A DNA stretch of 64,000 bases from an uncultured Planctomycetales bacterium (GTDB lineage: Bacteria > Omnitrophota > Gorgyraeia > Zapsychrales > Zapsychraceae): the NCBI GenBank assembly GCA_964535935.1, contig CAZHWM010000020.1:1210-65209 (forward strand), read 5' to 3'. Positions 5,864 through 64,000 of this stretch are shown in pieces. The translations under genes were made by a program, and so were the position numbers. Below the pieces are notes generated by a model, which saw only the letters and a list, made by a program, of their open reading frames with translations, had not been told where the DNA came from and did not search any database. How positions within the stretch are numbered: the stretch's first letter is position 1; each line of letters starts with the position of its first letter.

Positions 5864-5951
5864 GTATTTTTTGAGATTCTTCGCATGCCTGCAGCATACC
5901 CAAAATGACAAACAAGGAAACAGTTGTCTTCCCTTCCCCTCCTTCTTCCTC

Positions 5952-10381: not shown

Positions 10382-10451
10382 ATCTATTCTCCCCTAAGGT
10401 TTTCTGTATCCAATTTTAGCTTAAAATTTATTTAACGAATATAAATAGTCT

Positions 10452-12645: not shown

Positions 12646-12724
12646 ATCGCTCCCTCCTCTTTAGAAATTTTATATTACTCTCACATTAATCAACGCCGCC
12701 ACCTATTCATTATACTTTACTTTT

Positions 12725-12973: not shown

Positions 12974-12993
12974 ATCTCCCTCCTTAATATTAG

Positions 12994-13031
12994 AAATATA
13001 AAAGGGGCATATTCACAAAAAGCTATGCCCC
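12994..13031 (-). terminator. rho-independent terminator after second hsp20
   Basis: GGGGCATA-(12 nt)-TATGCCCC forms a perfect 8-bp stem, followed on the minus strand by TTTTATATTT. Confidence 0.55.
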
Positions 13032-13044
13032 TTTCTCTGTATTC

Positions 13045-13425: not shown

Positions 13426-13495
13426 AAATATCACCTCCTCCTTTAATTAATCTTATAAAAGAGGATAAATTCTCTCTCCCCTTTACGAGATATAA

Positions 13496-13972
13496 TTAAT
13501 TAACATCAATCTTAATCTGTTTAGGTTTTGCTTCTTCTTTCTTAGGCAAAGTTAATTCTAAAACCCCATCTTTAAATACAGCTTTAACTTTAGAACCATC
13601 CACCTCACTTGGAAGACTTATACTACGGTGGAAACTACCATAAAACCTTTCTGAACGGATATAATCTTCTTCTTTTACTTCTCTCTCTTGTTTTTTCTCG
13701 CCCTTTATGGTAAGGATATTATCCTGAATCAATACCTCTATATCGTCCTTTTTTAGCCCAGGCAGATCTGCTTTTACTACAACATTATCTTTAGAATCAT
13801 AAATATCAATAGCAGGTGCCCACTGTCCGCCTAAAAGAGTAGTATCGGTTTCCCCAAGTCTTGGAAACGTCAAATCAAATAACCTATTCATTTCTCTTTG
13901 AAGATTCTCTAACTCCTGAAAAGGAGATATTACATTCCAATCTTTTGTCCTTTTAGTAGGAACATTTGCCAT
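13496..13972 (-). CDS. Hsp20/alpha-crystallin small heat-shock protein
   Basis: SPFQELENLQREMNRLFD N-terminal motif. ACD motifs NVVVKADLPGLKKDDIEVLIQDNILTIKGEK ... ERFYGSFHRSISLPSEVD ... DGVLELTLPK. The start is set at the ATG after GGAGGAGG; the track's GTG is at 13981. Confidence 0.9.
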   Translation of the reverse strand: MANVPTKRTKDWNVISPFQELENLQREMNRLFDLTFPRLGETDTTLLGGQWAPAIDIYDSKDNVVVKADLPGLKKDDIEVLIQDNILTIKGEKKQEREVKEEDYIRSERFYGSFHRSISLPSEVDGSKVKAVFKDGVLELTLPKKEEAKPKQIKIDVN

Positions 13973-14141
13973 AATTATCACCTCCTCCTTCTTTATTTAT
14001 ACTCTTCTAATAATTATAATTACAAATAAATACATATAAACAAAATCAATTTTCACTACCATACTTCACTTCGAAATAAATCATTTTTATCTCATTTTAC
14101 CACCCCCCTTCTTTAACCAACCTTTATTTTTCATCAAATAA

Positions 14142-14907: not shown

Positions 14908-16191
14908 TCAAAAATTATATCTTATTCTTATATATACGTTTTTATTTCGTTTCATCTGGCCAAATTCTGTAATATCGTCTTCTCCCCATGGTAAATTGGC
15001 CCCAAGAGTGGCTTTCAAATGGTCATTAACATCATAGCTTACAGATGGCCTGCAATAACCATCTTTATCTGAAGGAGAATAGAAGGTGAATAAAGATAGG
15101 GTTACTGTCTGGTGTTTAAATTGTTTGGTAATACGGTTTGTTAGCAAATGCCTAAACTCATCCCAAAAATAATCGTTTGGCAGGAGATTGTCTCTATAAT
15201 TATCATAATCAAGCCGTTGTTCATACATATATTGAAAACCTATTTTAAAGTCATTTCCCATATCTTTTGAATAGCCAAGCATGGCCTTAAACATGGAATT
15301 TTCTATCATTCTATTACTGCCATCACTGTCCTCTCTTGAATTATAATATCCAGTTTCAATGTTTCCTATTCCACCTAAAATACTACCCCGCAAACTTACT
15401 CCATATGCATCAAGTCTCTCATAGTATAATTGTTTAGATGATTCGTCTTTATAACTACGCGGATTCTTATCATATCCGTGGAAAAAGTATATGGCAAATT
15501 CGGTACCATTTATATTTTTATATATCCTTAAGGCATATTCATTATTAGAAAATTGATGCGGTGGGGATATAATATGTCTGTCAGAATCAATCCCTGCAAT
15601 ACCAGAACGAAAACTATCAAAAAACGAAAGTCTATCTCCTTTCGCTATAGTATTAGGGGTAAAATAAGGCATAATAATAAAATCTATACTTGCAAAATCA
15701 GGATAAAATGACATCTTTACAGCAGGCGTAGGTTTCTTCAGGTATTCGTCATCTCTGCCAATAAAAAATGATACATAGTCTTTTGGGAACAGGTCATTAA
15801 TAAACAAATAATCCCCTGTTCCCCATGTTAAGACCTGCTGACCTATTTTCAAATCCATAAATTCAAAAGGGGTCAAAGATAAACTCATTTCTCTTAATTC
15901 AAAATCCGTCTTACCGTCATAATATTCGTCAATAATAAAATCTCCCCTGAAGTTTAATATGGCCCCTTTATCAGCTAAATAGTTATTTCCTTCAAAAAAA
16001 TATGTTGTTTTAAGCTGGAGTCTTTGTTCTAATAAATTGAATGTGTCTTGTTTGGTGTTATCATCACTAACTTTCACTCCTATATCTGTCTCTAAAAAAC
16101 CGTGGAAATCAGGCAACGATGCACATGCCAATCGCACATCTAAAACATAAAAAAACAGTATAATATATTGTAAAATCTTTATCTTATCCAT
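14908..16191 (-). CDS. putative outer-membrane beta-barrel protein (family not recognised)
   Basis: It has a signal-peptide-like N-terminus (...VRLACAS). Composition is Y/G/D/N-rich with an alternating pattern. The C-terminus is ...YIRIRYNF with a terminal Phe. It overlaps the LolA-like gene by 13 nt. Confidence 0.5.
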   Translation of the reverse strand: MDKIKILQYIILFFYVLDVRLACASLPDFHGFLETDIGVKVSDDNTKQDTFNLLEQRLQLKTTYFFEGNNYLADKGAILNFRGDFIIDEYYDGKTDFELREMSLSLTPFEFMDLKIGQQVLTWGTGDYLFINDLFPKDYVSFFIGRDDEYLKKPTPAVKMSFYPDFASIDFIIMPYFTPNTIAKGDRLSFFDSFRSGIAGIDSDRHIISPPHQFSNNEYALRIYKNINGTEFAIYFFHGYDKNPRSYKDESSKQLYYERLDAYGVSLRGSILGGIGNIETGYYNSREDSDGSNRMIENSMFKAMLGYSKDMGNDFKIGFQYMYEQRLDYDNYRDNLLPNDYFWDEFRHLLTNRITKQFKHQTVTLSLFTFYSPSDKDGYCRPSVSYDVNDHLKATLGANLPWGEDDITEFGQMKRNKNVYIRIRYNF

Positions 16192-39156: not shown

Positions 39157-39546
39157 CTATTCCTCTGCCATAGCCTCTGTCTGAGAAACCAACGACAACA
39201 ATTTAGCAAACAAACTCGTATCTCTTCTTACACTAGCTGTCCTACGGATATAGCTATCATTAAAGGATGGGTTATAGACCGCAACTCTAAATACCTTATC
39301 ACAATCCACAAATTGCATCTGAGAATCTTTTGTAAGCATAACATGACCAAGATGACTGGCCGACTTTAACCGAGCAATAGTATAAACTATATGATTATTC
39401 TGTTCTCTTAACTTACCAATATGCTCCTGCCTACTCCTCTGTTTATACCCCAAATCAATTATGCGCATCTGCATATATATATATATAACTGCCACTATAG
39501 TGACAATACATAACAAACCAACTATCTTTTCCAATCTAAGATACAT
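39157..39546 (-). CDS. ftsL: FtsL-like cell-division protein
   Basis: 129 aa with a single N-terminal TM helix followed by a short helical or coiled region. It lies between rsmH and ftsI. Confidence 0.6.
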   Translation of the reverse strand: MYLRLEKIVGLLCIVTIVAVIYIYMQMRIIDLGYKQRSRQEHIGKLREQNNHIVYTIARLKSASHLGHVMLTKDSQMQFVDCDKVFRVAVYNPSFNDSYIRRTASVRRDTSLFAKLLSLVSQTEAMAEE

Positions 39547-46530: not shown

Positions 46531-47043
46531 TTACCGAATAAAAGTAATCACTAAATTTGGTCTAAAATTATCATGGACCTTTTTTGCAATATTCCTAAGT
46601 CTCTTTTTTATAACAAATATATTCCTCAACTTAGCAGGCCTCTGAATCTGTTTTATCAATCCCCGTAAATCTTTTATAATAGGAGCGAGTAGTTCTTTTT
46701 TTTCTTCAGCTAACAACTCTGACATTTTCTCCAGCTGTTTTAGTTCCTGATTCAGCAAATATATCTGTCTCTTCTCACTACTGTTCTCATCTATTGCCTG
46801 TATAAGATCCCTATACCATACCCTCCATAAAGAATAAGAGTATCTATACTGGTCCTCCACGCTCATAGATTTAACAGGATATTCTTTCGGTTCTAATACA
46901 GGAACAATCTCCTGAGATTGACTATCCTTGTTCTTTTCCCTTATAAACTTCTTACGTAGTGGTTCACATCCCAATATACAAAAAACAATAAAAAAACAAA
47001 CAGAAACTAAACCGAAGATATTAAAAAAATATTTTCTATGCAT
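46531..47043 (-). CDS. hypothetical lipoprotein with helical/coiled C-terminal region
   Basis: The start is set at MHRKYFF after an AAAGGAG RBS. It has the lipobox-like sequence ILGC. No family recognised. Confidence 0.45.
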   Translation of the reverse strand: MHRKYFFNIFGLVSVCFFIVFCILGCEPLRKKFIREKNKDSQSQEIVPVLEPKEYPVKSMSVEDQYRYSYSLWRVWYRDLIQAIDENSSEKRQIYLLNQELKQLEKMSELLAEEKKELLAPIIKDLRGLIKQIQRPAKLRNIFVIKKRLRNIAKKVHDNFRPNLVITFIR

Positions 47044-47112
47044 AAAATCTCCTTTGTTTATGACCACAAGTTAGAATATAATTAAACTCTAAAAACTACT
47101 ATATCAAATCTC

Positions 47113-50355: not shown

Positions 50356-51654
50356 CTATTTTTTCTTAGGTATCGTTATAATCAGCTCATCACCTTGAGT
50401 GGTTGTTGTCAATTTATCTGTATCCGCATCTTCTGGCAGAGATACAGATTTCAAAAATGAACCATAGGTATGCGAACGCACTGATGAATTTTTCGTAGTC
50501 TCTTCTGTCTGCTCAGAATATTCTCCTGATATGGACAATGAATGCTGATGTATTTCTATATCTATCTTATTCTTATTAAGACCCTTTGTATTAATCTTCA
50601 TCTCATATTTATCACCCAAATCCTTTAATTCAAAATCAGTATCATAAAACAAATCAGTATCAAACATCCCTGGCATACCTCCTTTAGAAGTTATACCAGA
50701 AAAACTATCTTCAAATATTCTACGCATACTCTCACGCATACGTTCCATCTCAGCAAACGGATCCCACCGTCTTCCCACAGAAGAGAAGGAAGGAGACAAA
50801 CTCTGAGATTTCATACTACTCGTATTATTAGAAGAAATATTACGTTTCACAGAGACACTTTTATTTCTTCTATACTCGTCCAATGCCTTTTTAACCTTCT
50901 CTATGGGTATAGCAAAACCTATACTCTGAGAATTCTGAACCACTGCCACATTAATACCAACCAACTCCCCATTCAAATTAAGCAATGCACCGCCACTATT
51001 ACCAGGATTAATCGGTGCATCTATTTGCAAAAGGCCATCAAATACGATCCTACCATTACTAGCCTCTATCTTTCTATCCTTCCCACTTATAACTCCCACA
51101 GTAACCGAATTTTCAAGCCCTAAAGGATTTCCTATCGCCACAACTGTCTCTCCTATCATAACATCTCCTGGCTTGCCCAATTTAGCTGCATGCAAGGGCT
51201 CAGGGGGAGTTATTTTTACAATTGCAATATCATCTTTAGGGTCTTCATACATCACCTTCCCCTCTACTGACTTACCATCCCTTAATATGACCACCACATT
51301 ACTAGCCATATTCACAACATGTGCATTAGTTACTATAATCCCATTCGTATCTAAAATTACACCTGACCCCACACTATGTAACTTCAATGCCCGCCTTGGA
51401 GTATAATAACCAAAGAATTTTTCAAAAAGCATATCGAATTCACTGCCATAACGTCCCCAAAATGGATTCTCACTAAGATAAATCAACCGCTCAGTACTTA
51501 TATTCACAACTGCAGAGGCATTTTCCCTTACTACCTTCACCACTGGTGTTTCTCTAGGATTATCCTTAGAGGCAAAAGCAGATCTCACGCATACACAAAT
51601 AACCGCTATCGACATAAAAACAATAGACCTTCTATAGGACGACCATCTCCTCAT
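50356..51654 (-). CDS. HtrA/DegP-type serine protease fused to a C-terminal Hsp20 alpha-crystallin domain (no PDZ evident)
   Basis: Signal-peptide-like N-terminus. The S1C triad contexts are TNAHV (His112), DDIAIV (Asp141/142) and GNSGGAL (Ser220). A Ser/Asn-rich linker is followed by [18 protein letters not shown] ... [29 protein letters not shown] ... [15 protein letters not shown] ... ELIITIPKK. Confidence 0.85.
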
Positions 51655-53964: not shown

Positions 53965-54885
53965 CTATTCTCTCTTCCTAACAACTCTGCTAGCCGCTGT
54001 CCTTAACATAGGGATGTATTCTTTTTTTGCTATCTCTATACCCTTATATATCTGCAAACTATCTTTATCTACCACACCAACTGCTCCCAATTCCATAGCC
54101 TTTTTAGCTATAGCAGAATTATCTTTAGCTATAGTAGACACAATAACAATGGGTTTGGGAAAATGTCGCATAATCTTATCAAGAAATTTCAAACCATCCA
54201 ATTTTGGCATTATTATATCTAAACTAATAACATCAGGATCCGTAGAGAGAATAAGATCCCGTGCCTCAAATGCGTCCTTAGCTTGTCCACATACCTCCAT
54301 ACCAGGAGTATCATTTATTATTCTTGATAGGATATTACGTACTATAGTAGAATCATCAACAACAAGAACACGTATATTCTTACTACGAAAATCCTTGCGT
54401 TCCTCCCCTGTGGGACGCACTATAACAGAGAAATCAGAAGTGTTAAAATATATCTTTCTCCCTCTAGTCCCGCCTACATCGCTTTCTACAATTGGTATCC
54501 TATACTCTAACAAAACCTCTTTTGCCATAGCAATATTCTCTTCTCCTATTCGCACACCAGAACCCAGATGGCTTACAACATTTCCCCCACCATATATCTT
54601 AGCTTTATAATTACCCACTGTTGGATCCAAAGTCAACAGTTTGTCTATAATATTCCTAGTGGACAAATCCCCAAAACGACCTATGTCTGTTTCATTAGGA
54701 TTAGTGGCACGATCCCTTACGAAATGATTCATAGCGGCTGATCCATTCTTTACATTATATACACATACCGCTACACAGGAACCAAGTAAAGTTGCAATAT
54801 ATTTCGGCTTTTTTGTAATGTGATATTCTCCTGGTAATAAAAAAACTCTTTCTAAATCTGAAGGCGCGACAGGTTCTGAATTCAT
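53965..54885 (-). CDS. cheD: CheD chemoreceptor glutamine deamidase fused to a CheB-type receiver domain
   Basis: Residues 1-160 carry LLGSCVAVCV...AMNHF...KIYGGGNV...IGEENI...DVGGTRGRKIYF (CheD). Residues 171-275 carry IRVLVVDDSTIVRNIL...DVISLDIIMPKLDG...IVIVST...VVDK (REC). Confidence 0.85.
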   Translation of the reverse strand: MNSEPVAPSDLERVFLLPGEYHITKKPKYIATLLGSCVAVCVYNVKNGSAAMNHFVRDRATNPNETDIGRFGDLSTRNIIDKLLTLDPTVGNYKAKIYGGGNVVSHLGSGVRIGEENIAMAKEVLLEYRIPIVESDVGGTRGRKIYFNTSDFSVIVRPTGEERKDFRSKNIRVLVVDDSTIVRNILSRIINDTPGMEVCGQAKDAFEARDLILSTDPDVISLDIIMPKLDGLKFLDKIMRHFPKPIVIVSTIAKDNSAIAKKAMELGAVGVVDKDSLQIYKGIEIAKKEYIPMLRTAASRVVRKRE

Positions 54886-54953
54886 TTGTTCCCTCCGTTA
54901 AATTTATCTAAAAATACCATAAATATTTAACCTAAATTATATACTTTCAATAA

Positions 54954-55352
54954 TTATTGTTTTAGTTTCGCCGTTCTATCAATAAAATCAACATATTCTC
55001 TATCATTTCCCTCTGACATACTCTCGCGTATATCACCAAACATCCTTATCATAAGATCACTCCCCTTAATAAACACATCCAAAAAACGATCATCTATTAC
55101 CCTACTTCCTGAACGAATAGATTCAATAGATTCCTCTAATATATGTGCTATCTCTTTTACCTTTAAAAATCCCAAAACAGCTGCATTACCTTTAATTGTA
55201 TGAAGAATTCTAAATATATAATCTATTTCTTCCCTATTGTCAGAAGAAGAATTTAAGGATATAGCAAGATTGGTGACCTCATTTAATGATTCCTCAGACT
55301 CATCTACAAATTGTATGACAACATCATGTATATCAGCATACGGATCAGACAT
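54954..55352 (-). CDS. stand-alone Hpt protein, paralogue of the CheA P1 domain
   Basis: 132 aa. FVDESEESLNEV...IDYIFRILHTIKGNAAVLGFLKVKEIAHILE aligns by eye along its length with CheA residues 1-110. Confidence 0.8.
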   Translation of the reverse strand: MSDPYADIHDVVIQFVDESEESLNEVTNLAISLNSSSDNREEIDYIFRILHTIKGNAAVLGFLKVKEIAHILEESIESIRSGSRVIDDRFLDVFIKGSDLMIRMFGDIRESMSEGNDREYVDFIDRTAKLKQ

Positions 55353-55497: not shown

Positions 55498-57612
55498 TCA
55501 TAAAACATTTTCTAAATTTAACACAATAGCTACCCGTTCATCGCCTAAGATAGCCCCACCTGATATCAAATCAGAACGTGCGCCCAATCCTTCTATATCC
55601 TTTATAACCACCTGCTGCGTCCCAAGGACATCATCTACTAAAAGCACAAAATCTCTTTGACCTGCTGTTATAATTACTCCCACATACTCTGTCCTTTGAT
55701 CATCTTTATCCCTCTTTAATTCAAGCAGACGATCTAAGCGAATAACAGGAAACACCTTCTTATGATGAAGCAGGCACTCTCCTTCCTCTATAGTAGTTGT
55801 AATTTTGTCAGAATCAACCATAAATGACTCCCCAACACCTGCCATAGGAAGAACGAACCTATTATCACAAGAAGAAACAAGAAACCCTGCCATAATACGT
55901 ACTGCCACAGCCTTAGGTGCTTCTATAGTAAATGTAGAGCCCTCATCAAGAACACTTGATATATGTATCTGTCCACCCATCGCGTCTACATTCTTTTTAA
56001 CCACATCCATCCCAACACCTCTCCCGGAAATGTCTGTAATCTCTTTAGCAGTTGAAAAACCCGGAGCAAACAACAGATGATACACTTCTTGTTCAGAAAG
56101 TGTAGCTGCTCTCTCTTTTGTTAGGAGCCCTTTAGATATTGCATTCTCTATTACAACATCCCTGTTTATACCACCTCCATCGTCTTTAATAGATATAAAA
56201 AGGGAGTTTTCATTCTCTGTTATCTCTATGGTTATACTACCTTCCTCTGGCTTGCCTTTTGCCTTTCGTTCTTCAGGAGGTTCTATTCCATGATCCGCTG
56301 CATTCCTAACCATATGAACAAACGGTCCTTCCAAACTCTCCAAAAGACTCTTGTCTATTAAGGTCCCCTCTCCTATAATATGTACCTTTATCTTTTTCTT
56401 CTTTGCAACAGCGACATCATGGACTATACGGGGAGCTCTCTGCACCAATGTCTTGATAGGCACCCGACGTATATCCAATACGCTCTTCTGAAGCGCTGTA
56501 GACAGGTCATTAAACGTCTCATTATTCTTCTTAAGATTTATAACGTCCTTATTCAGTCCTAATTTCTCTGCAAATCGTTTTTGTATATGATCATACATCT
56601 CCCCCACAACAACTAACTCTCCTACAAAATCAAGGAACCTGTCTATACTAGATTCATACACTCTCATTGTCTTCTTGGATTTTACTGTGGCATCTTTATC
56701 TTTAACAGATACTGTCTTTTGTTTCTCTTCTCCCTTATCTGCTTCTTCTTTTATCTTAACGTTATTTACCTTACTTAAAATAACTTCTGCAAGAAAAGGA
56801 GTAAAACCTTCAGTAGAAATCGTTTTATTATAAGCATCTATAGCCTCATCTACGAATGAAACAGTATCTTCTGTAGCCTGCTTTTTCAACTCCTCCAAGG
56901 CTGAAAAAATTTTCTTCGAATTTTCATCATCAAGAATATCTCCAAAATCAGCGGACAAAATCTCTTTTACCATCCCTATCACATCTTTGTGTCCCGAAAC
57001 AGATAGTCCTTCTTCCCCCGTATCTGTTGAAGAACTACTTTCATCTGATGCACCATTAGCAATAGGAGAAACCAATTCCAGATTCTGTAAGATCCTCTTC
57101 CATATACTATTTAAAGAAGAATCATCCAAGACCAACTTCTCTTTAAACTGCAGTAAATCCTTTTTTATGAGCTTCCATATAGCAATAGGGTCTTTCTTCT
57201 TTCCGCCTTCAACATGAGATGTTATCTCATTAATAAGTCCATTATATTCAGAATCATCTTCCAACTCAGGTTTACCGGCCCTGACGTTTTCTAACATATC
57301 CTTCAAAAAATCTATACCACGTATAAGCACCCCTGATATAGTTTCACTGAATTTCATTGAACCTTCCCGCACCAGATTCATCAAATCTTCCATAATATGA
57401 GCAAGAGATTTTACCTTCATCAAATTAAAAAATGCAGAATTCCCCTTTATCGTATGAACTGTTCTAAAAATCTTATCAATTGCCTCTTTATTAGAAGGGT
57501 CAGATTCCAAAGTAATAAACATATTCGCCACTTCACTCAACATTTCCTGAGATTCGTCAACGAATTCCATAACCAACTCAGGATCAACTCCATAGTCTAT
57601 ATTTTCAGACAT
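55498..57612 (-). CDS. cheA: chemotaxis histidine kinase CheA
   Basis: P1 Hpt (FRTVHTIKGNSAFF), dimerisation region, HATPase N/G1/G2 boxes (HMVRNAADHGIE, DDGGGI, GRGVGMD) and a C-terminal CheW-like domain. Confidence 0.95.
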   Translation of the reverse strand: MSENIDYGVDPELVMEFVDESQEMLSEVANMFITLESDPSNKEAIDKIFRTVHTIKGNSAFFNLMKVKSLAHIMEDLMNLVREGSMKFSETISGVLIRGIDFLKDMLENVRAGKPELEDDSEYNGLINEITSHVEGGKKKDPIAIWKLIKKDLLQFKEKLVLDDSSLNSIWKRILQNLELVSPIANGASDESSSSTDTGEEGLSVSGHKDVIGMVKEILSADFGDILDDENSKKIFSALEELKKQATEDTVSFVDEAIDAYNKTISTEGFTPFLAEVILSKVNNVKIKEEADKGEEKQKTVSVKDKDATVKSKKTMRVYESSIDRFLDFVGELVVVGEMYDHIQKRFAEKLGLNKDVINLKKNNETFNDLSTALQKSVLDIRRVPIKTLVQRAPRIVHDVAVAKKKKIKVHIIGEGTLIDKSLLESLEGPFVHMVRNAADHGIEPPEERKAKGKPEEGSITIEITENENSLFISIKDDGGGINRDVVIENAISKGLLTKERAATLSEQEVYHLLFAPGFSTAKEITDISGRGVGMDVVKKNVDAMGGQIHISSVLDEGSTFTIEAPKAVAVRIMAGFLVSSCDNRFVLPMAGVGESFMVDSDKITTTIEEGECLLHHKKVFPVIRLDRLLELKRDKDDQRTEYVGVIITAGQRDFVLLVDDVLGTQQVVIKDIEGLGARSDLISGGAILGDERVAIVLNLENVL

Positions 57613-57733: not shown

Positions 57734-58177
57734 CTATTCTGGTTTCATTCTTATCAATGTCTTAAGTTTCATCTGCCAATGTTTTAAATGATCAACCGCT
57801 GCCTTCACTGCATCCTCTAACTCTGCCATATCTTCTAATGGTTTAAATACACATGTATCAGCCCCTAAACGCATACAAGATAGAACATTATCCATAGTAA
57901 CATACCCTGTTATCATAATACAATGTGTCATAGGCGCACTATTCTTTATAGCCCGTAACAATTCTATCCCATCCATATCAGGCATATTAATATCAGATAT
58001 AACAACCTCAAAACGCTTCTTATTCATTATCTCAAGAGCCTCTTTCCCATTAGATGCACATTCTACTTCATATCCTATAAAACGAAAATGTCGTTTTAGC
58101 ATATCCCGTATATTTTCTTCATCATCGACAACCAAAATACGAGGCTTGGCATCTATTTCTTCTTGATTTTCCTTCAT
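57734..58177 (-). CDS. single-domain response regulator (receiver only)
   Basis: RILVVDDEENIRDML ... VVISDINMPDMDG ... IMITG ... KP. Confidence 0.85.
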   Translation of the reverse strand: MKENQEEIDAKPRILVVDDEENIRDMLKRHFRFIGYEVECASNGKEALEIMNKKRFEVVISDINMPDMDGIELLRAIKNSAPMTHCIMITGYVTMDNVLSCMRLGADTCVFKPLEDMAELEDAVKAAVDHLKHWQMKLKTLIRMKPE

Positions 58178-58198
58178 TTTATCACTCCTGATCTTTGA

Positions 58199-59392
58199 TT
58201 AATGGCTCCATAAAGGTAACTCTATTTTAAAACGAAGGCCACCATTTCCTGCCCTCTCCACATCTATAATTCCTCCATGCCCTTCAATAATAGAACGGCA
58301 AATAGGCAACCCTAACCCAGTTCCTTTCCCTGCTGGTTTTGTTGTAAAAAATGGCTCCCATATCTTTTCTAATTTATCATCTTCAAGCCCAGGGCCATTA
58401 TCCTCTACTATAATAAAAACACTATCATCTGAGTTACTTACATCTATCAGTAACCTTGCATCTTTCATCCCCTCCATCGCATCTGCTGCATTTATAAATA
58501 AGTTTATCAAAACCTGCTCTATCTGCTGAGGATCACCTTTCACAATTAATTCCTTTTCAGGCAATCTTTTTTCTACAAGCACGCGATTCTTTAATGCCTT
58601 ATGACAAAGGGTAAGTGCTGTTTCTATCCTATCAGCTATAGAAAAAGGTATCTTTTCCGTAGTTTCTTTTCTTGAAAAGGCCTTTAGACTATCAACGACC
58701 TTTCTTATCCTAACTACACCATCTTTTATCCCAGCAATAAGAGATGGCATTTCCTCATAAATAAATTTCAATCTTTCATCATCTCCGCAGTTACAACCTT
58801 TCTCTTCCATTGCCTTACTTAATACCGCCCAGAACTTCTCTAACGTCTGAACATTCCCACTTATGAAGGTAGTAGGATTTTTTATCTCATGGGCCAGCCC
58901 AGCAGATAATGTCCCAATGGTGGCAAGTCTATCAGCATGAACCAATTGTCTTGCCCGTTCTTCTGCTAATTTCTCCATATCACGAGCAAACTCTTCTATT
59001 TTTTTCTTAGCAAAATATAATCCTAAATGAGTCTTTACTCGCACAGAAAGCTCTTCCATAACAATTGGCTTAATCAGATAATCAACAGCCCCTGCCTTAA
59101 ACGCATCAACTATTTCTCTAGTATCTGTAGACCCTGTTAGAAAAATAATCGGAACATCATTTCCTATCTTAGTTTGTTTTATCTTCCTACATAACTCAAT
59201 GCCGTTCATCTCAGGCATATTATAATCTAATATAAACATATCAGCAGACAATCCCTCTTCTATCTTCTGTAATGCCTCTAGCCCACTATGTATAGCTACC
59301 ATCTCATATCCTGACATCAACTCACTAGAACCAACTATTTCAGGCAATGTTACATCATCATCTACCATGACAATCTTTGGCTTCAATGACAA
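58199..59392 (-). CDS. receiver-histidine kinase hybrid (REC-HisKA-HATPase, no sensor domain)
   Basis: N-terminal REC (IVMVDDD ... FILDYNMPEMNG ... LIKP), H-box GLAHEIKNPTT, N box LINLFINAADA, G boxes DNGPGL and GTGLGL. It has a TTG start after AGGAGGG. Confidence 0.9.
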   Translation of the reverse strand: MSLKPKIVMVDDDVTLPEIVGSSELMSGYEMVAIHSGLEALQKIEEGLSADMFILDYNMPEMNGIELCRKIKQTKIGNDVPIIFLTGSTDTREIVDAFKAGAVDYLIKPIVMEELSVRVKTHLGLYFAKKKIEEFARDMEKLAEERARQLVHADRLATIGTLSAGLAHEIKNPTTFISGNVQTLEKFWAVLSKAMEEKGCNCGDDERLKFIYEEMPSLIAGIKDGVVRIRKVVDSLKAFSRKETTEKIPFSIADRIETALTLCHKALKNRVLVEKRLPEKELIVKGDPQQIEQVLINLFINAADAMEGMKDARLLIDVSNSDDSVFIIVEDNGPGLEDDKLEKIWEPFFTTKPAGKGTGLGLPICRSIIEGHGGIIDVERAGNGGLRFKIELPLWSH

Positions 59393-59420
59393 TCGTCCCT
59401 CCTATCACAAACTACAAATA

Positions 59421-59813
59421 TTACTTAGGATCACCTAATTTCTCCTTAATCTTAGAGATTAACTTGTCTGGATCTATCGGTTTTACAATATAATCATCAC
59501 ATCCTATTGAGAAGGCCTCATTCACAGGCTCTTTAAACGCGGTAACCATAATAATCGGCAACCCCTCCCCCAAAGGGATCCCAGCCTTCTTTTCGTTTTC
59601 TCTAACCAACTTAAGGAACTCGACTCCATCCATATCAGGCATAGCCACATCTAACAAAACAAGGTCATATCCCCCTTTCTTCAATGACTGATTATATGCC
59701 TCAATAGCCTCTCTACCATTTGCTGCAACATCACAAACAGCAAAATCTCTTAAAATCTCCAAAATCAGTTGTCTATTAGTAAAATTATCATCTACTACTA
59801 AGATCTTCCACAT
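59421..59813 (-). CDS. single-domain response regulator (receiver only)
   Basis: KILVVDDNFTNRQL ... LVLLDVAMPDMDG ... IMVTA ... IVKP. Confidence 0.85.
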   Translation of the reverse strand: MWKILVVDDNFTNRQLILEILRDFAVCDVAANGREAIEAYNQSLKKGGYDLVLLDVAMPDMDGVEFLKLVRENEKKAGIPLGEGLPIIMVTAFKEPVNEAFSIGCDDYIVKPIDPDKLISKIKEKLGDPK

Positions 59814-59880: not shown

Positions 59881-60240
59881 TCAGGCTACAACATTCATTC
59901 TCAATTCTTCAAATGCCTTTTTAAATAAAACAAACTGTTCTCTTATTCTCTCTATATCCCTATGTTCTTTAGCAAAACTATCTATAGCCTCTGCTGTTTT
60001 ATATAATGCCTCCAATCTGAGATTGCCATATACACCTTTCAACCTATGTGCTAAAGGTTGAATTAAAGAAAAATTTTCTGAACCTATCGCAGATTCAAGT
60101 TCCTTAATATCTTTTTCTCCCTGGTTTATAGAAGAAGATAAAATTTTTAAATATACTTCCGGAGCAATATGTAATGTCCGACTATTTTCTTTTATAAGAG
60201 ATTCCCAATCACTTCTAGGGGAAAAGATACCTTCATCCAT
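59881..60240 (-). CDS. stand-alone Hpt phosphotransfer protein
   Basis: 119 aa, all-helical composition, with AHRLKGVYGNLRL (HxxKG Hpt motif). Confidence 0.7.
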   Translation of the reverse strand: MDEGIFSPRSDWESLIKENSRTLHIAPEVYLKILSSSINQGEKDIKELESAIGSENFSLIQPLAHRLKGVYGNLRLEALYKTAEAIDSFAKEHRDIERIREQFVLFKKAFEELRMNVVA

Positions 60241-60263
60241 CCTATCTCACCACCCTCCTCGAA

Positions 60264-60848
60264 TTATTCCGAATTAATATTATTATCATCTTTCCTTGAC
60301 TGCTCAACCAACTGGCTTAACTTATCAAAGGCACTAACCGAAGCCTCCTTTTGTGCATCAACCGTACTATTTCCACCAACCTGATGTAGCCGATATGCAA
60401 ATTTCAATTGAAAACAAATATCTTTCTCACAACAATATGCCTGCGTAAATTCTAACGTCTTATCAGATTTAACAGACTCAATATTATCTCCTTTAACTGT
60501 AGTGGGTATACTTATATCAAATTTATATTCCGTAGAATCCATCTTCATTTTAACCCCACCAGCTATCATATTTATTATCTCTCCTACACCATCCATAACA
60601 TCAGGAGAATCTGGTTCTATTTCTATCCCCAACATTTTAGATACAATATCCGCTGCTATGTCAACAGTAATCCATAACGAAATATTACCTTCAATAGCTC
60701 CAGCAAGACCAATAGAACTTATAATCATATTCTCCTGTAATGAAAAAGACATATTAGTATTTAATTCAGGAGAAAGAGACAGCGTAACACTAAAAGTATC
60801 CGCTACTGCTCTCTTTAGTGCATCCTCTAATTGTTGTTGTAATTCCAC
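60264..60848 (-). CDS. cheX: CheX-type CheY-P phosphatase
   Basis: IISSIGLAGAIEGNISL ... VMDGVGEIINMIAGGVK ... ISIPTTVKG matches the CheX layout (E-x2-N motif). It has an extra C-terminal segment of about 50 aa. Confidence 0.8.
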   Translation of the reverse strand: MELQQQLEDALKRAVADTFSVTLSLSPELNTNMSFSLQENMIISSIGLAGAIEGNISLWITVDIAADIVSKMLGIEIEPDSPDVMDGVGEIINMIAGGVKMKMDSTEYKFDISIPTTVKGDNIESVKSDKTLEFTQAYCCEKDICFQLKFAYRLHQVGGNSTVDAQKEASVSAFDKLSQLVEQSRKDDNNINSE

Positions 60849-60955
60849 GATAATCCTCTCTCTTTAAATAAAATATATCCTATATATCTTTATACAGAGC
60901 AAACTGATACCCCATGCCCTATCCTAATAAAAACCTAAAAAAGGTATATATTCAT

Positions 60956-61333
60956 TTACAATATAGACTGTATTGTCTCTTTTAGTTTTTCAGGAGTAAA
61001 AGGTTTAGGAATATACCCAGCCAAATTAGGATTTGCTGCCTTAGCCTCGTTTATTTTCTCTTCTGTTCCCTCTGTAGTCACCATAACAACAGGGATATTA
61101 GCGACTGCCGGAACCTTTGCAACCGCCTGTATAAACTCTAACCCAGACATATTTGGCATGTTCCAGTCACATAAAACAAGCCCCACATCCTGATAATTAG
61201 CAGCTAATACCTCTATTGCCTGATTTCCATCTCCTGCCTCTAGCACCTCATTTTCATAGCCTGCCTTACGAATAATAGATATTATCATTTTTCTTTGAAC
61301 ACCAGAGTCATCTACCACCAAAATTTTTTTCAT
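60956..61333 (-). CDS. cheY: chemotaxis response regulator CheY
   Basis: 125 aa. KILVVDDSGVQRKM ... LVLCDWNMPNMSG ... VVMVTTEG ... YIPKPFT. Confidence 0.9.
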   Translation of the reverse strand: MKKILVVDDSGVQRKMIISIIRKAGYENEVLEAGDGNQAIEVLAANYQDVGLVLCDWNMPNMSGLEFIQAVAKVPAVANIPVVMVTTEGTEEKINEAKAANPNLAGYIPKPFTPEKLKETIQSIL

Positions 61334-61387
61334 TATAAACCTCCTCTTCTTTTATCTTACTTTTTATAAAACTATGCTTTAAATTCA

Positions 61388-61966
61388 CTATAAATGCTCC
61401 ACAGGTGCCATAGTTATACTAATCACCATAGTCTTCTCCTTCCAGAGATAAAAAGTTAATTCATAAAGCTTATATTCGTTATAATTAAACTCAACACCCC
61501 CAGGGATATCATTTTTTGCTTTAATAGGAGCAGAAATCGTCAAATCTTTATACCCTAATGAGGTTAACTCATTCTTAAATTGGCCAGTAATAATATTTGC
61601 GAGCTCTCCACAACAATCCAATATTATCTCTTCATCTTCTTCATCAGCATCCTCAAACCCAAGCGCCTTCAAAAAACGGACCGCAAGGTCTTCTCTTATA
61701 TAAATCACTATAGCGCCAACAGGATCATGTTCCTCTAAATGTCTTGGCGATAAATAAAAATTAATTGCAGATACATAACAAGGACCATTAAACTTTTCTA
61801 ACCCAAAGGTCTGCATCCTGCTTGCATACTCTATAATCTCCTTCTCCTCAAACTCAGGATCCTGAGACAACTTAAGCTTATACATCTCTTCTAATGTATT
61901 TTGTACACATCCCATCAATGTTGTCGCAATTACCTGAGGGTCAAACTCTCTATCTTTAGCCACCAT
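61388..61966 (-). CDS. CheX/CheC-like protein (divergent)
   Basis: ILDCCGELANIITGQFK (E-x2-N-x3-G) and TISAPIKAKN in a CheX-like arrangement. The start is set at the ATG (MVAKDREF) after an AAGGGGA RBS; the track uses an upstream GTG. Confidence 0.5.
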   Translation of the reverse strand: MVAKDREFDPQVIATTLMGCVQNTLEEMYKLKLSQDPEFEEKEIIEYASRMQTFGLEKFNGPCYVSAINFYLSPRHLEEHDPVGAIVIYIREDLAVRFLKALGFEDADEEDEEIILDCCGELANIITGQFKNELTSLGYKDLTISAPIKAKNDIPGGVEFNYNEYKLYELTFYLWKEKTMVISITMAPVEHL

Positions 61967-62009
61967 ACAAGATCCCCTTACTATCACCTAGCCTTCTATA
62001 AATTTCTCA

Positions 62010-62423
62010 TTATTCCTTACTATCCCTTGCTTCAGATACATTCTTTCTCATAGATAGGATAAGTTTAATTATATCGTGACGACTTACAATACCTACTAAC
62101 TTCCCATCATTTATAATAGGAACCCTACGTTTATTACTATTCTTAAAAAAATCACATACATCAATAGCACTATCATCTTCTTTAAAACTAATAACATCTC
62201 GTGTCATATAATCACCAACCGTTGCACTCTTATTCACCTCTGCATCTGTCAATAAATGCAAAACATCCCACTCACTAACAAGCCCTACCAACCTATTTTC
62301 TTTATCTACAACTGGCAAACCACTTATTCTATATGTCGCAAGTAACTCTATCGCATCATATATAGACGTATGTTCCTCTACTGTGATAGGATTTCTTGTC
62401 ATAAAATCTTTAACAGGAAACAT
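62010..62423 (-). CDS. CBS-domain pair protein
   Basis: Two CBS motifs (VKDFMTRNPITV ... ISGLPVVDKENRLVGLVS and VGDYMTRDVISF ... RRVPIINDGKLVGIVS). The start is set at the ATG after a GGGAGG RBS; the track uses an upstream TTG. Confidence 0.85.
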   Translation of the reverse strand: MFPVKDFMTRNPITVEEHTSIYDAIELLATYRISGLPVVDKENRLVGLVSEWDVLHLLTDAEVNKSATVGDYMTRDVISFKEDDSAIDVCDFFKNSNKRRVPIINDGKLVGIVSRHDIIKLILSMRKNVSEARDSKE

Positions 62424-62451
62424 TATATTCCTCCCTTTACGCAAAAAACTA

Positions 62452-63519
62452 TTAAACAGGTTTTCTCGTAGATACTAACCTTATAAGTTCTGCAGATATA
62501 TCTTTTAATGATTTAACCTTTTCTACTGCTCCTATCTCATAAGCAACCTTGGGCATGCCATATACTATACAACTCCTCTCATCCTGGCCTATTGTTCTAG
62601 CCCCTGCCTGTCTCATTTTCAACAAACCATCTGCCCCATCTCTACCCATTCCTGTTAATATTACTCCTATAGCATTAGAGCCTGCATACTTTGCAACAGA
62701 TGCAAACAATACATCCACTGCTGGTCTCTGATGATGGACCATAGGACCATCCTGAATACGCACATAATATCTGGCCCCACTCCTACGCAATATCATATGA
62801 AAATTCCCAGGGGCAAGTAATGCTAAACCTGGTCGCACAGTATCGTTATCCTCCGCCTCTTTTACTTCTAAGGCAGTTATCCTATCCAAACTATTTGCAA
62901 AGGATTTTGTAAAATTAGCAGGCATATGCTGCGCCATTACTATTCCGGGGAAATTAGCTGGTAATGCAGGTAAAATCTCACGTATCGCCTCTGTTCCACC
63001 TGTAGATGCACCAATTGCCACCACAATATCTGTCGTCTTTATCATCGCTGCAGTTGCTGGCGAAGGTGGTTTAGATATGGAAGGTCTTGGCCGTAGTGTT
63101 GTAATTTTTCCCTTTGCCATTGCAGCAGCAGTAATTTTATCTACAAGATAAGTTATCATCTCATTAAGTTTATAAGAAACATCTAACTCTGGCTTCTGAA
63201 TAACCTCAATAGCACCTAATTCCATAGCACGCATAGCGGTCTCACAACCAGCTGGAGTTAACGAACTTAATATAATCACAGGCATAGGATGTGCCTTCAT
63301 AAGTTTCTCAAGAAAAGTTATGCCGTCCATTCTCGGCATTTCAACATCTAAGGTGATAACATCTGGCTTATCTCGAACAATTCTATCCCTTGCAAAATAT
63401 GGGTCAGGCACAGCTCCTATCACTTCTATATTAGGATACTTACTAAGTTCTCTAGTTAGAATATTTCTAACTACAGCAGAATCATCAACAATTAATACCT
63501 TTATCTTTTTGTTTTCCAT
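62452..63519 (-). CDS. cheB: chemotaxis protein-glutamate methylesterase CheB
   Basis: N-terminal REC (IKVLIVDDSAVVRNIL ... ITLDVEMPRMDG) and a C-terminal methylesterase domain (IGASTGG, HMP, GMGRDGA). Confidence 0.95.
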   Translation of the reverse strand: MENKKIKVLIVDDSAVVRNILTRELSKYPNIEVIGAVPDPYFARDRIVRDKPDVITLDVEMPRMDGITFLEKLMKAHPMPVIILSSLTPAGCETAMRAMELGAIEVIQKPELDVSYKLNEMITYLVDKITAAAMAKGKITTLRPRPSISKPPSPATAAMIKTTDIVVAIGASTGGTEAIREILPALPANFPGIVMAQHMPANFTKSFANSLDRITALEVKEAEDNDTVRPGLALLAPGNFHMILRRSGARYYVRIQDGPMVHHQRPAVDVLFASVAKYAGSNAIGVILTGMGRDGADGLLKMRQAGARTIGQDERSCIVYGMPKVAYEIGAVEKVKSLKDISAELIRLVSTRKPV

Positions 63520-63584: not shown

Positions 63585-64000
63585 TTATGCTATCCTTTGA
63601 AAAAGTGCCGGCCCCACCACACGTACACGATTTTTTACAGAGCCAACCAATGTCTCAGAATGGCCAATAAACAGATAACCTCCTATCTCTAAAAAATTTA
63701 ATAATTTATGCACAAGGCTCTGCTGAGTAGCCTGATCAAAATAAATCATTACATTCCTACAAAAAATAAAATCAAACCTACCCTTAAACGGAAACTGTGG
63801 CCGCATAAGATTAAATCTCCTAAACACAATAAAAGACTTAAGTTCTGGTTTCACCTTGTAAAATTTCTCTCCTGCAACATCTTCTCTATCGAAATATTTA
63901 CTTATAATTAAAGGAGATACTCCCTTAAACTGATTAGCCCTATACCTTCCTTCTATCGCCTTAGCAAGGGCCTTTGTAGATATATCAGTAGCAAGCATCT
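63585..64000 (-). CDS. cheR: chemotaxis protein methyltransferase CheR (C-terminal part; start lies beyond the window)
   Basis: The frame is open to the right edge. ...ATDISTKALAKAIEGRY ... FDFIFCRNVMIYFD ... GGYLFIGHSE is a CheR SAM-dependent methyltransferase domain. Confidence 0.9.
   Translation of the reverse strand, partial: MLATDISTKALAKAIEGRYRANQFKGVSPLIISKYFDREDVAGEKFYKVKPELKSFIVFRRFNLMRPQFPFKGRFDFIFCRNVMIYFDQATQQSLVHKLLNFLEIGGYLFIGHSETLVGSVKNRVRVVGPALFQRIA

What the first reader, a model, noticed from the sequence alone, without database searches (positions are those of the whole stretch)
53965..54885. CheD deamidase fused to a CheB-like receiver domain
- Residues 1-160 form a complete CheD, with the catalytic contexts GSC-VAVC and MNHF plus the DVGGTRGRKIYF C-terminal block.
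- After a short linker, residues 171-275 form a receiver domain with the acidic pair (VVDD), the phospho-acceptor context (ISLDIIMPKLDG), the Ser/Thr position (VST) and Lys (VDK).
- This receiver is visibly closest to the receiver of the CheB encoded at 62452-63519. Compare IRVLVVDDSTIVRNILSRII...DVISLDIIMPKLDGLKFLDKIM with IKVLIVDDSAVVRNILTREL...DVITLDVEMPRMDGITFLEKLM.
- In the established Bacillus and Thermotoga models, CheD is regulated by binding to CheC.
- Here receptor deamidation would instead be placed under direct phosphorylation control, analogous to CheB. The window has CheX-like genes but no obvious CheC.
Basis: partly seen in the sequence, partly recalled or inferred. Interest (0 to 1): 0.55.

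Follow-up and report, generated by a model that had tools for sequence, protein, structure and literature searches.

The report
CheD deamidase fused to CheB-type receiver
An uncultured Omnitrophota bacterium encodes a real single protein that joins the chemoreceptor-modifying enzyme CheD to a phosphorylation switch of the kind found in CheB. This protein belongs to a widespread but unstudied family that usually sits next to its own CheA kinase, which suggests receptor modification by CheD is controlled directly by phosphorylation rather than by the partner protein CheC.

Summary
Window 53965-54885 (-) is one uninterrupted 306-aa ORF with a good RBS. It contains a CheD domain (aa 12-160) with the catalytic triad T32/C37/H54, a 10-aa linker, and a complete receiver domain (aa 171-300) with D177/D178/D223/T251/K274.

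- **Receiver type.** The receiver is CheB-type. Its best PDB and NCBIfam matches are CheB, and it is 45% identical to the window's own CheB receiver.
- **Not an artefact.** The identical protein occurs on independent assemblies, and more than 120 homologues share the architecture. They come from Omnitrophota, Planctomycetota, Nitrospinota, Nitrospirota, several deltaproteobacterial lineages, Myxococcota and Hydrogenedentota.
- **Context.** In about half of the loci the gene lies directly downstream of a distinct CheA subfamily. That CheA is the likely phosphodonor.
- **CheC.** The CheC-contact residues of CheD (Met-Phe) are replaced, and no CheC is in the window.
- **Related fusions.** Tri-domain CheD-REC-CheB-methylesterase proteins also exist, and 22 of 52 have lost the esterase catalytic Ser/His.
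- **Literature.** Nine full-text searches found no paper on this architecture, and no curated family model covers it.

The mechanism, a phospho-regulated CheD acting on receptors, is inferred and not shown. I rate it a new variant of a known kind, of moderate interest.

The parts
53965..54885 (-). CheD-REC gene, 306 aa, one uninterrupted ORF
   Evidence: ORF list. Pfam CheD plus Response_reg. The identical protein is found on 5 independent contigs.
54891..54896 (-). Shine-Dalgarno GGAGGG, 5 nt upstream of the ATG
   Evidence: Read from the sequence.
54406..54852 (-). CheD domain (aa 12-160). Catalytic codons are Thr32 (54790-54792), Cys37 (54775-54777) and His54 (54724-54726).
   Evidence: Aligned to T. 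maritima CheD 2f9z_C at E 6.6e-17 with the triad in register. The model matches 2f9z_C at TM 0.88 and rmsd 1.7 A. The triad is kept in at least 99 of 101 family members.
54376..54405 (-). Inter-domain linker (aa 161-170). Its length varies in the family: +9 aa in Planctomycetota and up to about 65 aa in one member.
   Evidence: Mean pLDDT for the 10-residue block 161-170 is 63. Alignment A1. Domain coordinates.
53986..54375 (-). CheB-type receiver domain (aa 171-300). Residues are D177, D178, phospho-acceptor D223 (codon 54217-54219), T251 and K274.
   Evidence: Best PDB hits are CheB: 6ymz at 1.9e-27, 1a2o at 5.8e-27 and 3t8y. NCBIfam CheB model positions 2-136 match at 1.6e-37. Model TM is 0.89 to the T. 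maritima CheB receiver.
54954..55352 (-). Free-standing Hpt protein (132 aa). It is a CheA-P1 paralogue with the HTIKGN phospho-histidine motif and is a candidate phosphodonor.
   Evidence: Pfam Hpt. 41% identical to the N-terminus of the adjacent CheA, E 6e-27. In L084 the same gene overlaps the CheD-REC start by 4 nt.
55498..57612 (-). CheA2 (704 aa: Hpt, dimerisation, HATPase, CheW-like). It belongs to the CheA subfamily that is co-inherited with CheD-REC and is the likely cognate kinase.
   Evidence: Pfam. Adjacency holds in about 26 of 52 loci. All the best CheA2 homologues are the ones next to CheD-REC.
57734..59813 (-). Conserved upstream module: single-domain receiver (57734-58177), REC-HisKA-HATPase hybrid kinase (58199-59392), single-domain receiver (59421-59813)
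   Evidence: Pfam. The same gene order recurs in L016, L020, L029, L034, L037, L042 and L084.
59881..62444 (-). Hpt (59881-60240), CheX (60264-60848), receiver (60956-61333), CheX-like (61388-61987), CBS-pair protein (62010-62444)
   Evidence: Pfam.
62452..63519 (-). Canonical CheB (REC plus methylesterase). It is the closest paralogue of the CheD-REC receiver.
   Evidence: Pfam. BLASTP 45% identity.
63585..63998 (-). CheR, C-terminal part; the gene runs off the window. Upstream in the same genome lie PilZ, CheA1 (917 aa), CheW and a CZB-MCP.
   Evidence: Pfam. The longer contig L087.

Best explanation
The gene encodes a two-domain chemotaxis adaptation protein. It has an enzymatically competent CheD (chemoreceptor glutamine deamidase, possibly also a methylesterase) joined by a short linker to a C-terminal receiver domain of CheB ancestry.

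Proposed mechanism:
1. The adjacent CheA2 kinase phosphorylates Asp223, either directly from its own P1 domain or through the free-standing P1/Hpt protein encoded between the two genes.
2. Phosphorylation switches the CheD domain's access to, or activity on, the adaptation helices of the cluster's chemoreceptors.
3. This gives kinase-dependent feedback on receptor modification. The logic is that of CheB, but the catalytic module is a CheD, and CheC is not needed.

Shown: the architecture, intact catalytic and phospho-acceptor residues, the CheB-type origin of the receiver, wide conservation, and the conserved pairing with a CheA subfamily.

Inferred: the phosphodonor, the substrate, and the direction of regulation (activation or release).
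For: - **Architecture and residues.**
- **CheB-type receiver.** CheB is the top hit in NCBIfam and in the PDB by sequence and by fold. Mean identity of the family's receivers is 39% to CheB receivers against 25% to CheY-like receivers.
- **Purifying selection on both active sites.** T32, C37, H54, D177, D223, T251 and K274 are invariant in 120 homologues at 50-78% identity. They are at least 96% conserved in a broader set of 100, except the T251 position, which is Thr in 74 and Ser in 23 of those 100.
- **Not an artefact.** The identical protein is found in 5 contigs. All 120 best hits share the architecture. Among the 149 best representatives of clusters at 50% identity that were classified, 48 have the two-domain architecture.
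- **Kinase partner.** A CheA, or CheA followed by Hpt, lies directly upstream in 23 of 52 loci, plus 3 more with mis-called starts. Those CheAs are the 25 best matches to the window's CheA2, ahead of the genome's own CheA1.
- **CheC independence.** The CheD residues that contact CheC (B. subtilis M101/F102, PMC3513319) are Val in 92 of 101 members at the first position and never Phe at the second. No CheC was found in the window or in the flanks of L084-L088.
- **Independent hint that a CheB-type receiver can drive CheD.** Tri-domain CheD-REC-CheB_methylest proteins exist, and 22 of 52 have lost the esterase Ser/His while keeping the CheD triad.
- **Possible substrate.** The cluster's MCP has QQ and EQ pairs in its adaptation helices (read by eye).
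Against: - There is no experimental evidence of any kind.
- AlphaFold models each domain confidently (pLDDT 90) but not their mutual arrangement (pTM 0.59). No intramolecular inhibitory interface can be claimed.
- The cluster already has a normal CheB and CheR, and some relatives also have a stand-alone CheD (L084, L086). The added value of CheD-REC is therefore unclear.
- Around 18 Planctomycetota orthologues are orphan genes with no kinase nearby.
- The receiver departs from CheB at positions that tune phosphoryl chemistry. D+2 is Ile where CheB has Glu, and K+1 is Asp or Glu where CheB has the usual Pro. Its kinetics, or even its competence, could differ.
- In B. subtilis the deamidase activity of CheD matters less for chemotaxis than its binding functions (PMC3513319).
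Confidence: 0.6

Rival explanations
1. A single-polypeptide version of the Bacillus CheC/CheD/CheY-P loop. The CheD domain would act mainly as a receptor-binding activator of CheA and not as an enzyme. The phosphorylated receiver would pull it off the receptors, playing the role that CheC plus CheY-P plays in B. subtilis, and this would lower kinase activity.
For: In B. subtilis the binding functions of CheD matter more than its deamidase activity, and CheY-P strengthens CheC-CheD binding (PMC3513319). The CheC-contact motif is absent here and no CheC was found. The gene is tightly paired with a CheA.
Against: The catalytic triad is near-invariant across the family, which argues that catalysis is retained. 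No confident REC-CheD interface is predicted (pTM 0.59). This rival differs from the best explanation only in which output of CheD is regulated.
Confidence: 0.2
2. A phosphate sink or CheB competitor. The receiver would mainly drain phosphoryl groups from CheA2 or Hpt, or compete with CheB and CheY for the kinase. The CheD domain would be constitutively active and serve only to tether the sink at the receptor array, in the way CheV tethers a receiver through its CheW domain.
For: The domain order (array-binding domain followed by a C-terminal receiver) is that of CheV. The cluster holds at least six receivers and three Hpt domains, as in multi-branch phosphorelays with sinks. The receiver has unusual D+2 and K+1 residues, which can alter phosphoryl-group lifetime.
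Against: The inter-domain linker is short, about 10 residues. The receiver retains a CheB-type sequence through helix alpha-5, as far as aa 299-303, which is consistent with inter-domain signalling. Tri-domain relatives with a dead esterase keep the receiver next to CheD.
Confidence: 0.1
3. A phosphatase regulator. The CheD domain would bind and stimulate the CheX phosphatases of the cluster, as CheD does in Borrelia burgdorferi, and the receiver would be the phosphorylation-dependent handle or the substrate.
For: Two CheX genes lie in the same cluster, and CheX occurs near CheD-REC in L034 and L086. The CheX-CheD complex that enhances phosphatase activity is documented for Borrelia (PMC5318424).
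Against: Most CheD-REC loci show no CheX within 10 kb. The conserved partner is CheA, not CheX.
Confidence: 0.07
4. An artefact: two separate genes (cheD and a response-regulator gene) joined by a sequencing or assembly error.
For: In other bacteria cheD and cheB are separate but adjacent, in frame, and divided by a single stop codon. A one-base error could therefore mimic a fusion.
Against: The identical ORF is found in 5 contigs from different assemblies. More than 120 homologues at 50-78% identity have the same continuous architecture and a conserved linker region. No methylesterase domain follows the receiver.
Confidence: 0.01

Closest known systems
CheB (receiver plus protein-glutamate methylesterase/glutaminase; structures 1A2O, 6YMZ, 3T8Y)
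   Same: The receiver is of the same type: 42-44% identity to solved CheB receivers and 45% to the window's CheB. It has the same predicted target, the adaptation sites of chemoreceptors. It has the same expected logic, a kinase-dependent phosphorylation switch on a receptor-modifying enzyme. CheB also deamidates Gln.
   Different: There is no methylesterase domain. The catalytic module is the unrelated Cys-His-Thr hydrolase CheD. The domain order is reversed, with the enzyme N-terminal and the receiver C-terminal. The receiver has Ile at D+2 and Asp or Glu at K+1, where CheB has Glu and Pro.
Stand-alone CheD regulated by CheC (B. subtilis, T. maritima; structure 2F9Z)
   Same: The CheD fold is the same (TM 0.88), as is the catalytic triad, and the presumed substrate is the same.
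   Different: A receiver is covalently attached. The CheC-contact Met-Phe is replaced by Val-Val. No CheC is found nearby. Regulation is proposed to be by phosphorylation in cis instead of by CheC/CheY-P in trans.
CheV (CheW-REC)
   Same: The layout is the same: an array-associated domain followed by a C-terminal receiver phosphorylated by CheA. Both are auxiliary adaptation proteins.
   Different: The N-terminal domain is an enzyme (CheD), not a coupling protein. The receiver is of CheB type, not CheV type.
Tri-domain CheD-REC-CheB_methylest proteins (uncharacterised, database sequences only; e.g. P0133, P0144, named 'CheB' by JGI and NCBI)
   Same: The N-terminal CheD is followed by a CheB-type receiver, and the CheD triad is conserved.
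   Different: They retain a C-terminal methylesterase domain, which is active-looking in 30 of 52 and degenerate in 22 of 52. Their receiver keeps the CheB-like K+1 Pro. Sequence distances do not place the two-domain family inside them.
Borrelia burgdorferi CheD-CheX complex
   Same: CheD operates with CheX, without CheC, in a cluster that contains CheX.
   Different: The Borrelia CheD is a single-domain protein. No phosphorylatable domain is attached.

Membership tests
CheD (Pfam PF03975; chemoreceptor glutamine deamidase) | Domain model match above the curated threshold | tested here: met
   74.8 bits against a cut-off of 25.
CheD (Pfam PF03975; chemoreceptor glutamine deamidase) | Cys-His-Thr catalytic triad (T. 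maritima C27/H44/T21) | tested here: met
   C37, H54 and T32 are in register. The triad is cited from PMC7022378. It is kept in at least 99 of 101 relatives.
CheD (Pfam PF03975; chemoreceptor glutamine deamidase) | CheD alpha/beta sandwich fold | tested here: met
   The AF2 model matches 2f9z_C at TM 0.88, rmsd 1.7 A over 149 columns.
CheD (Pfam PF03975; chemoreceptor glutamine deamidase) | Curated NCBIfam CheD equivalog score | tested here: not met
   The best CheD equivalog scores 103.5 bits against a cut-off of 223. No curated equivalog covers this two-domain family.
CheD (Pfam PF03975; chemoreceptor glutamine deamidase) | Deamidation or demethylation of MCP adaptation sites | not testable with these tools
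   This needs an enzyme assay. The cluster MCP does carry QQ and EQ pairs.
CheC-regulated CheD subclass (Bacillus/Thermotoga type) | CheC-contact residues (B. subtilis M101/F102) and a CheC partner | tested here: not met
   The aligned residues are V102/V103. The family has Val in 92 of 101 members at the first position and no Phe at the second. No CheC is found in the window or in the flanks of relatives. Genome-wide absence could not be tested.
Response-regulator receiver domain (PF00072) | Domain model match above threshold and a (beta-alpha)5 fold | tested here: met
   75.2 bits against a cut-off of 30.2. Five strand-helix units in the model. TM 0.89 to 3t8y.
Response-regulator receiver domain (PF00072) | Active-site quintet: two acidic residues, the phospho-acceptor Asp, Thr/Ser and Lys | tested here: met
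   D177, D178, D223, T251 and K274 are present. They are invariant or more than 90% conserved.
Response-regulator receiver domain (PF00072) | Phosphotransfer from a histidine kinase or Hpt | not testable with these tools
   The only evidence is the conserved adjacency to a CheA subfamily and, in two loci, to an Hpt.
CheB (protein-glutamate methylesterase) | CheB-type receiver | tested here: met
   CheB models and structures are the best matches. The receiver is 45% identical to the window's CheB.
CheB (protein-glutamate methylesterase) | C-terminal CheB_methylest domain (PF01339) with the Ser-His-Asp triad | tested here: not met
   The protein ends after helix alpha-5 of the receiver. There is no PF01339 match. 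It is therefore not a CheB.
CheV | N-terminal CheW domain | tested here: not met
   No CheW match; the N-terminal domain is CheD.

The most novel reading that the evidence does not exclude
CheD-REC and its dedicated CheA subfamily would define a previously unrecognised, multi-phylum branch of chemosensory adaptation. In this branch a CheB-type receiver has exchanged its catalytic partner, from the Ser-His-Asp methylesterase to the Cys-His-Thr hydrolase CheD. CheD would then be the phosphorylation-gated receptor-modifying enzyme, which would explain how CheD can be regulated in the many bacteria that lack CheC. The tri-domain CheD-REC-CheB proteins with degenerate esterase sites would be snapshots of the same functional takeover.
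Probability: 0.4. Interest if true: 0.65.

Novelty: new variant of a known kind. Interest (0 to 1): 0.52.

Why it matters
CheD is widespread, but its regulation is understood only where CheC is present (Bacillus, Thermotoga) or, in part, where it binds CheX (Borrelia). A CheD hard-wired to a CheB-type phosphorylation switch and co-inherited with its own CheA would be a third way of controlling it. It would also be a second kind of phosphorylation-gated receptor-modifying enzyme besides CheB.

The finding gives a directly testable system. It has a defined kinase, an optional free P1 domain, a receiver Asp (D223), a catalytic Cys (C37) and a cluster-encoded receptor. It also flags a set of related fusions, the tri-domain proteins with dead esterase sites, that current pipelines simply label 'CheB' or 'response regulator'.

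Tried and rejected
1. **Truncation of the tri-domain fusion.** I tested whether the two-domain protein is a truncated CheD-REC-CheB fusion. Between-group identities and quartet sampling for both domains show no special affinity. For the receiver, 2D-3D identity is 35-39% and 2D-CheB is 39%. For CheD, 2D-3D is 31-34% and 2D to stand-alone CheD is 34%. NJ bootstrap support for group monophyly was only 11 of 100. The origin is unresolved.
2. **C-terminal tail as a CheB linker.** I first read the C-terminal 30 residues as a leftover CheB inter-domain linker. The AF2 secondary structure shows it is helix alpha-5 of the receiver.
3. **Fusion in cultured genera.** The tblastn hits in Geomonas, Chromatium, Allochromatium, Thalassotalea and spirochaetes looked like fusions. 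My ORF and jackhmmer annotation shows they are separate adjacent cheD and cheB genes.
4. **Aromatic switch residue.** I considered its absence at K-3 as a family peculiarity. Many canonical CheBs also have Val or Ile there.
5. **Terminator and promoter scan around the gene.** Uninformative in this AT-rich DNA.
6. **AFDB fold search.** The library was unavailable.
7. **Inter-domain contacts.** They could not be examined because model coordinates and PAE are not returned.
8. **Literature.** Nine full-text searches and targeted reads found no description of CheD-REC or CheD-CheB fusions. Two key subscription reviews from the Zhulin lab (Wuichet and colleagues) could not be opened.
Full report
**The object.** Window 53965-54885 on the minus strand is a single 306-codon ORF with an ATG start and no internal stop. 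A GGAGGG ribosome-binding site lies 5 nt upstream.

Pfam finds two domains well above threshold: CheD (PF03975, aa 60-157) and Response_reg (PF00072, aa 173-275). An AlphaFold2 model built on 120 homologues has mean pLDDT 90.4. It shows three parts:
- a CheD sandwich at aa 12-160;
- a low-confidence 10-residue linker;
- a full (beta-alpha)5 receiver at aa 171-300, which ends with helix alpha-5.

By Foldseek the N-terminal half superposes on T. maritima CheD (2F9Z chain C, TM 0.88). The C-terminal half superposes on the T. maritima CheB receiver (3T8Y, TM 0.89). No solved structure covers both halves. pTM is only 0.59, so the relative position of the two domains is not predicted.

**Active sites.** T32, C37 and H54 align with the Thr21/Cys27/His44 triad of T. 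maritima CheD (the triad is as stated in PMC7022378). The receiver has D177, D178, the phospho-acceptor D223, T251 and K274.

In an alignment of 120 homologues at 50-78% identity, T32, C37, H54, D177, D223, S250, T251 and K274 are invariant. In a broader, de-replicated set the CheD triad is kept in at least 99 of 101 sequences. In the same set the three receiver aspartates and Lys274 are kept in at least 96 of 100, and position 251 is Thr in 74 and Ser in 23 of 100. Both halves are therefore under purifying selection as functional modules.

**The receiver is of CheB type.** Several lines agree.
- NCBIfam CheB models are the best matches (aa 169-303 against model positions 2-136, E 1.6e-37).
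- The best PDB sequences are CheB from Pectobacterium, Salmonella and Thermotoga (E 1e-27 to 1e-20). The first CheY scores 2e-13.
- Within the window the receiver is 45% identical to that of the CheB at 62452-63519 (E 2e-32). The next receiver scores 1e-7.
- Across my data set the family's receivers average 39% identity to CheB receivers and 25% to CheY-like ones.

The receiver nevertheless has its own signature. It has Ile at D+2 where CheB has Glu, Ala at T+2, and Asp or Glu in place of the nearly universal Pro after the conserved Lys, in 85 of 100 sequences. These are positions known to tune phosphoryl-group chemistry (my own knowledge), so its kinetics probably differ from those of CheB.

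**Not an artefact, and not unique.** The identical protein is encoded on five contigs from ENA, Logan and NCBI assemblies. All 120 best hits in a 5.8-billion-protein search have the CheD plus receiver architecture and are about 300-328 aa long. An exhaustive search of 50%-identity representatives returned 108 clusters at E<=1e-30. Of the 149 best representatives that I classified by domain architecture, 48 have the two-domain architecture.

A scan of species-representative genomes found true fusions in the following groups:
- Planctomycetota, Omnitrophota, Nitrospinota and Nitrospirota;
- several deltaproteobacterial lineages: Ca. Adiutrix, Desulfarculia, Thermodesulfobacteriota, and strain Smac51 with a complete genome;
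- Myxococcota and Hydrogenedentota.

One caution applies. Lower-ranked tblastn hits in Geomonas, Chromatium, Allochromatium, Thalassotalea and spirochaetes are not fusions. They are adjacent, separate cheD and cheB genes, often in frame and split by a single stop codon (the in-frame bias is partly a search artefact).

Source annotations call the fusion 'response regulator' or 'CheD/CheY-like'. No curated NCBIfam model reaches its cut-off.

**Organism and neighbourhood.** All named relatives of the window's LigA are Candidatus Omnitrophica/Omnitrophota, at 55-60% identity. GC is about 36%.

The gene is the last of a long minus-strand che cluster. Using a longer contig of the same genome (L087), the full order is: CZB-MCP, CheW, CheA1 (917 aa), PilZ, CheR, CheB, CBS, CheX, REC, CheX, Hpt, REC, REC-HK, REC, CheA2 (704 aa), Hpt, CheD-REC, followed by metX and metW.

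No CheC (PF04509) was found in the ORFs I scanned. These were the whole cluster plus 33 other ORFs, which covers most but not all of the window.

**A conserved kinase partner.** In 52 non-redundant loci with enough upstream DNA, 23 have a CheA directly upstream of CheD-REC, in two cases with an Hpt in between. Three more were missed only because my ORF starts were over-extended. Two loci have CheB upstream, and about 18, all Planctomycetota, are orphan genes.

Ranked by similarity to the window's CheA2, the 25 best non-self CheAs are exactly the ones next to CheD-REC. Every other CheA scores lower, including the same genome's CheA1 and the CheAs of ordinary cheR-cheD-cheB operons. A REC-HisKA-HATPase hybrid kinase and a single-domain receiver usually precede this CheA.

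In the window and in its closest relative (L084) a free-standing P1-like Hpt sits between CheA2 and CheD-REC. It is 41% identical to the CheA2 N-terminus and carries the HTIKGN motif. In L084 it overlaps the CheD-REC start by 4 nt. This is the strongest comparative argument that the receiver is phosphorylated by this kinase branch.

**CheC independence.** In B. subtilis, CheD residues M101 and F102 lie at the CheC interface. They were picked because they are conserved in species that have CheC (PMC3513319). The aligned positions here are V102 and V103. In the family the first is Val in 92 of 101 sequences and the second is never Phe. The surrounding loop carries a 2-residue insertion and is the only low-confidence part of the CheD model.

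**Related fusions.** Fifty-two of the 149 best representatives are tri-domain CheD-REC-CheB_methylest proteins of about 500-545 aa. There are also single examples of REC-CheB-CheD and REC-CheD. In 22 of the 52, the esterase Ser (GASTGG) is Asn and the His is replaced, whereas all 35 canonical CheBs in my set keep Ser/His/Asp. These proteins keep the CheD triad. A CheB-type receiver next to CheD as the only intact catalytic domain has therefore arisen more than once.

Distances and quartet sampling do not show that the two-domain family descends from either tri-domain group, and NJ bootstrap support is poor. The origin is open. Fusion of adjacent cheD-cheB genes is the obvious raw material.

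**Mechanism, with what is shown and what is inferred.**
- Shown: the architecture, intact active sites, receiver ancestry, family breadth, the CheA pairing, and loss of the CheC-contact motif.
- Inferred: CheA2, directly or through the free P1, phosphorylates D223. This gates CheD's action on the adaptation helices of the cluster's receptors, which contain QQ and EQ pairs.

The result would be CheB-like feedback executed by a CheD.

I give this about 0.6 confidence. The main alternative (0.2) keeps the same wiring but makes the regulated output receptor binding and kinase activation instead of catalysis, as in the Bacillus CheC/CheD/CheY-P loop. Three other readings are less likely:
- a CheV-like phosphate sink (0.1);
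- a CheX-stimulating role as in Borrelia (PMC5318424; 0.07);
- an assembly artefact (0.01, refuted).

**Novelty.** Both domains and the regulatory logic are known. The combination, its dedicated CheA and its distribution appear not to have been described. Nine full-text searches and several targeted reads found nothing. I therefore rate it a new variant of a known kind with moderate interest (0.52).

Noticed in passing
Proteins P0133, P0135, P0144, P0147, P0158 and others (representatives); not in the window: Tri-domain CheD-REC-CheB_methylest proteins of about 500-545 aa make up 52 of the 149 best representatives. In 22 of them the esterase catalytic Ser is Asn and the His is lost, while the CheD triad is intact. 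Databases name them simply 'CheB'.
   Followed up: partly
window 54954-55352 (-): A free-standing 132-aa CheA-P1-like Hpt protein with the HTIKGN motif. It is 41% identical to the N-terminus of the neighbouring CheA and sits between CheA2 and CheD-REC. The same gene in L084 overlaps the CheD-REC start codon by 4 nt.
   Followed up: partly
L087 2091-9935 (same genome, upstream of the window end): The cluster continues with a 982-aa MCP carrying a CZB (zinc-binding) domain, then CheW, a 917-aa CheA1 that has two P1-like Hpt repeats, and a PilZ-domain gene between CheA1 and CheR. One cluster therefore holds two CheA kinases.
   Followed up: partly
Receiver of CheD-REC, aa 225 and 275 (window about 54211-54213 and 54061-54063): Family-specific receiver signature. 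D+2 is Ile where CheB has Glu. The residue after the conserved Lys is Asp or Glu in 85 of 100 members, in place of the near-universal Pro found in CheB, in the tri-domain fusions and in the CheY-like receivers. The consequence is unknown.
   Followed up: partly
L059 10478-10483; also L060, L062, L079: In Geomonas and others, cheD and cheB are separate genes in the same frame, divided only by a stop codon immediately followed by ATG (TAG ATG in L059). A single point mutation would create a CheD-CheB fusion. The sample is biased by the tblastn retrieval.
   Followed up: partly
L055 4129-5655 and L061 8960-10525: CheR-CheD fusion proteins (508 and 521 aa) in Pirellula and Planctomyces MAGs, directly upstream of cheB. 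This is another uncharacterised fusion of adaptation enzymes.
   Followed up: no
window 50356-51654 (-): A 432-aa protein combining a trypsin-like serine protease domain (Trypsin_2) with a C-terminal HSP20/alpha-crystallin domain. Three further HSP20 genes lie at 11896-13981.
   Followed up: no
window 62010-62444 (-): A CBS-pair protein (144 aa) is encoded inside the che cluster between CheB and a CheX-like gene. It is conserved in the same position on the independent contig L001.
   Followed up: no
window 1-64000: Nearly all genes are on the minus strand, and GC skew is strongly negative throughout (-0.15 to -0.35 per 8 kb). This is consistent with one replichore and strong gene-strand bias. 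The first 8 kb, a glycosyltransferase / O-antigen ligase region, has lower GC (0.295).
   Followed up: no
window 14908-16191 (-), 46531-47067 (-), 39157-39546 (-), 5595-5915 (-): ORFs of 427, 178, 129 and 106 aa with no Pfam match at E<=1e-4 (E<=1e-3 for the 178-aa ORF).
   Followed up: no
L086 7572-10915 and L084 1-150 / 10001-10924: Some relatives encode both a stand-alone CheD and CheD-REC in one cluster. In L086 the order is CheA, CheD, CheR, CheB, CheD-REC, MCP, and the two CheD domains are only 36% identical. The two forms are therefore probably not redundant.
   Followed up: partly
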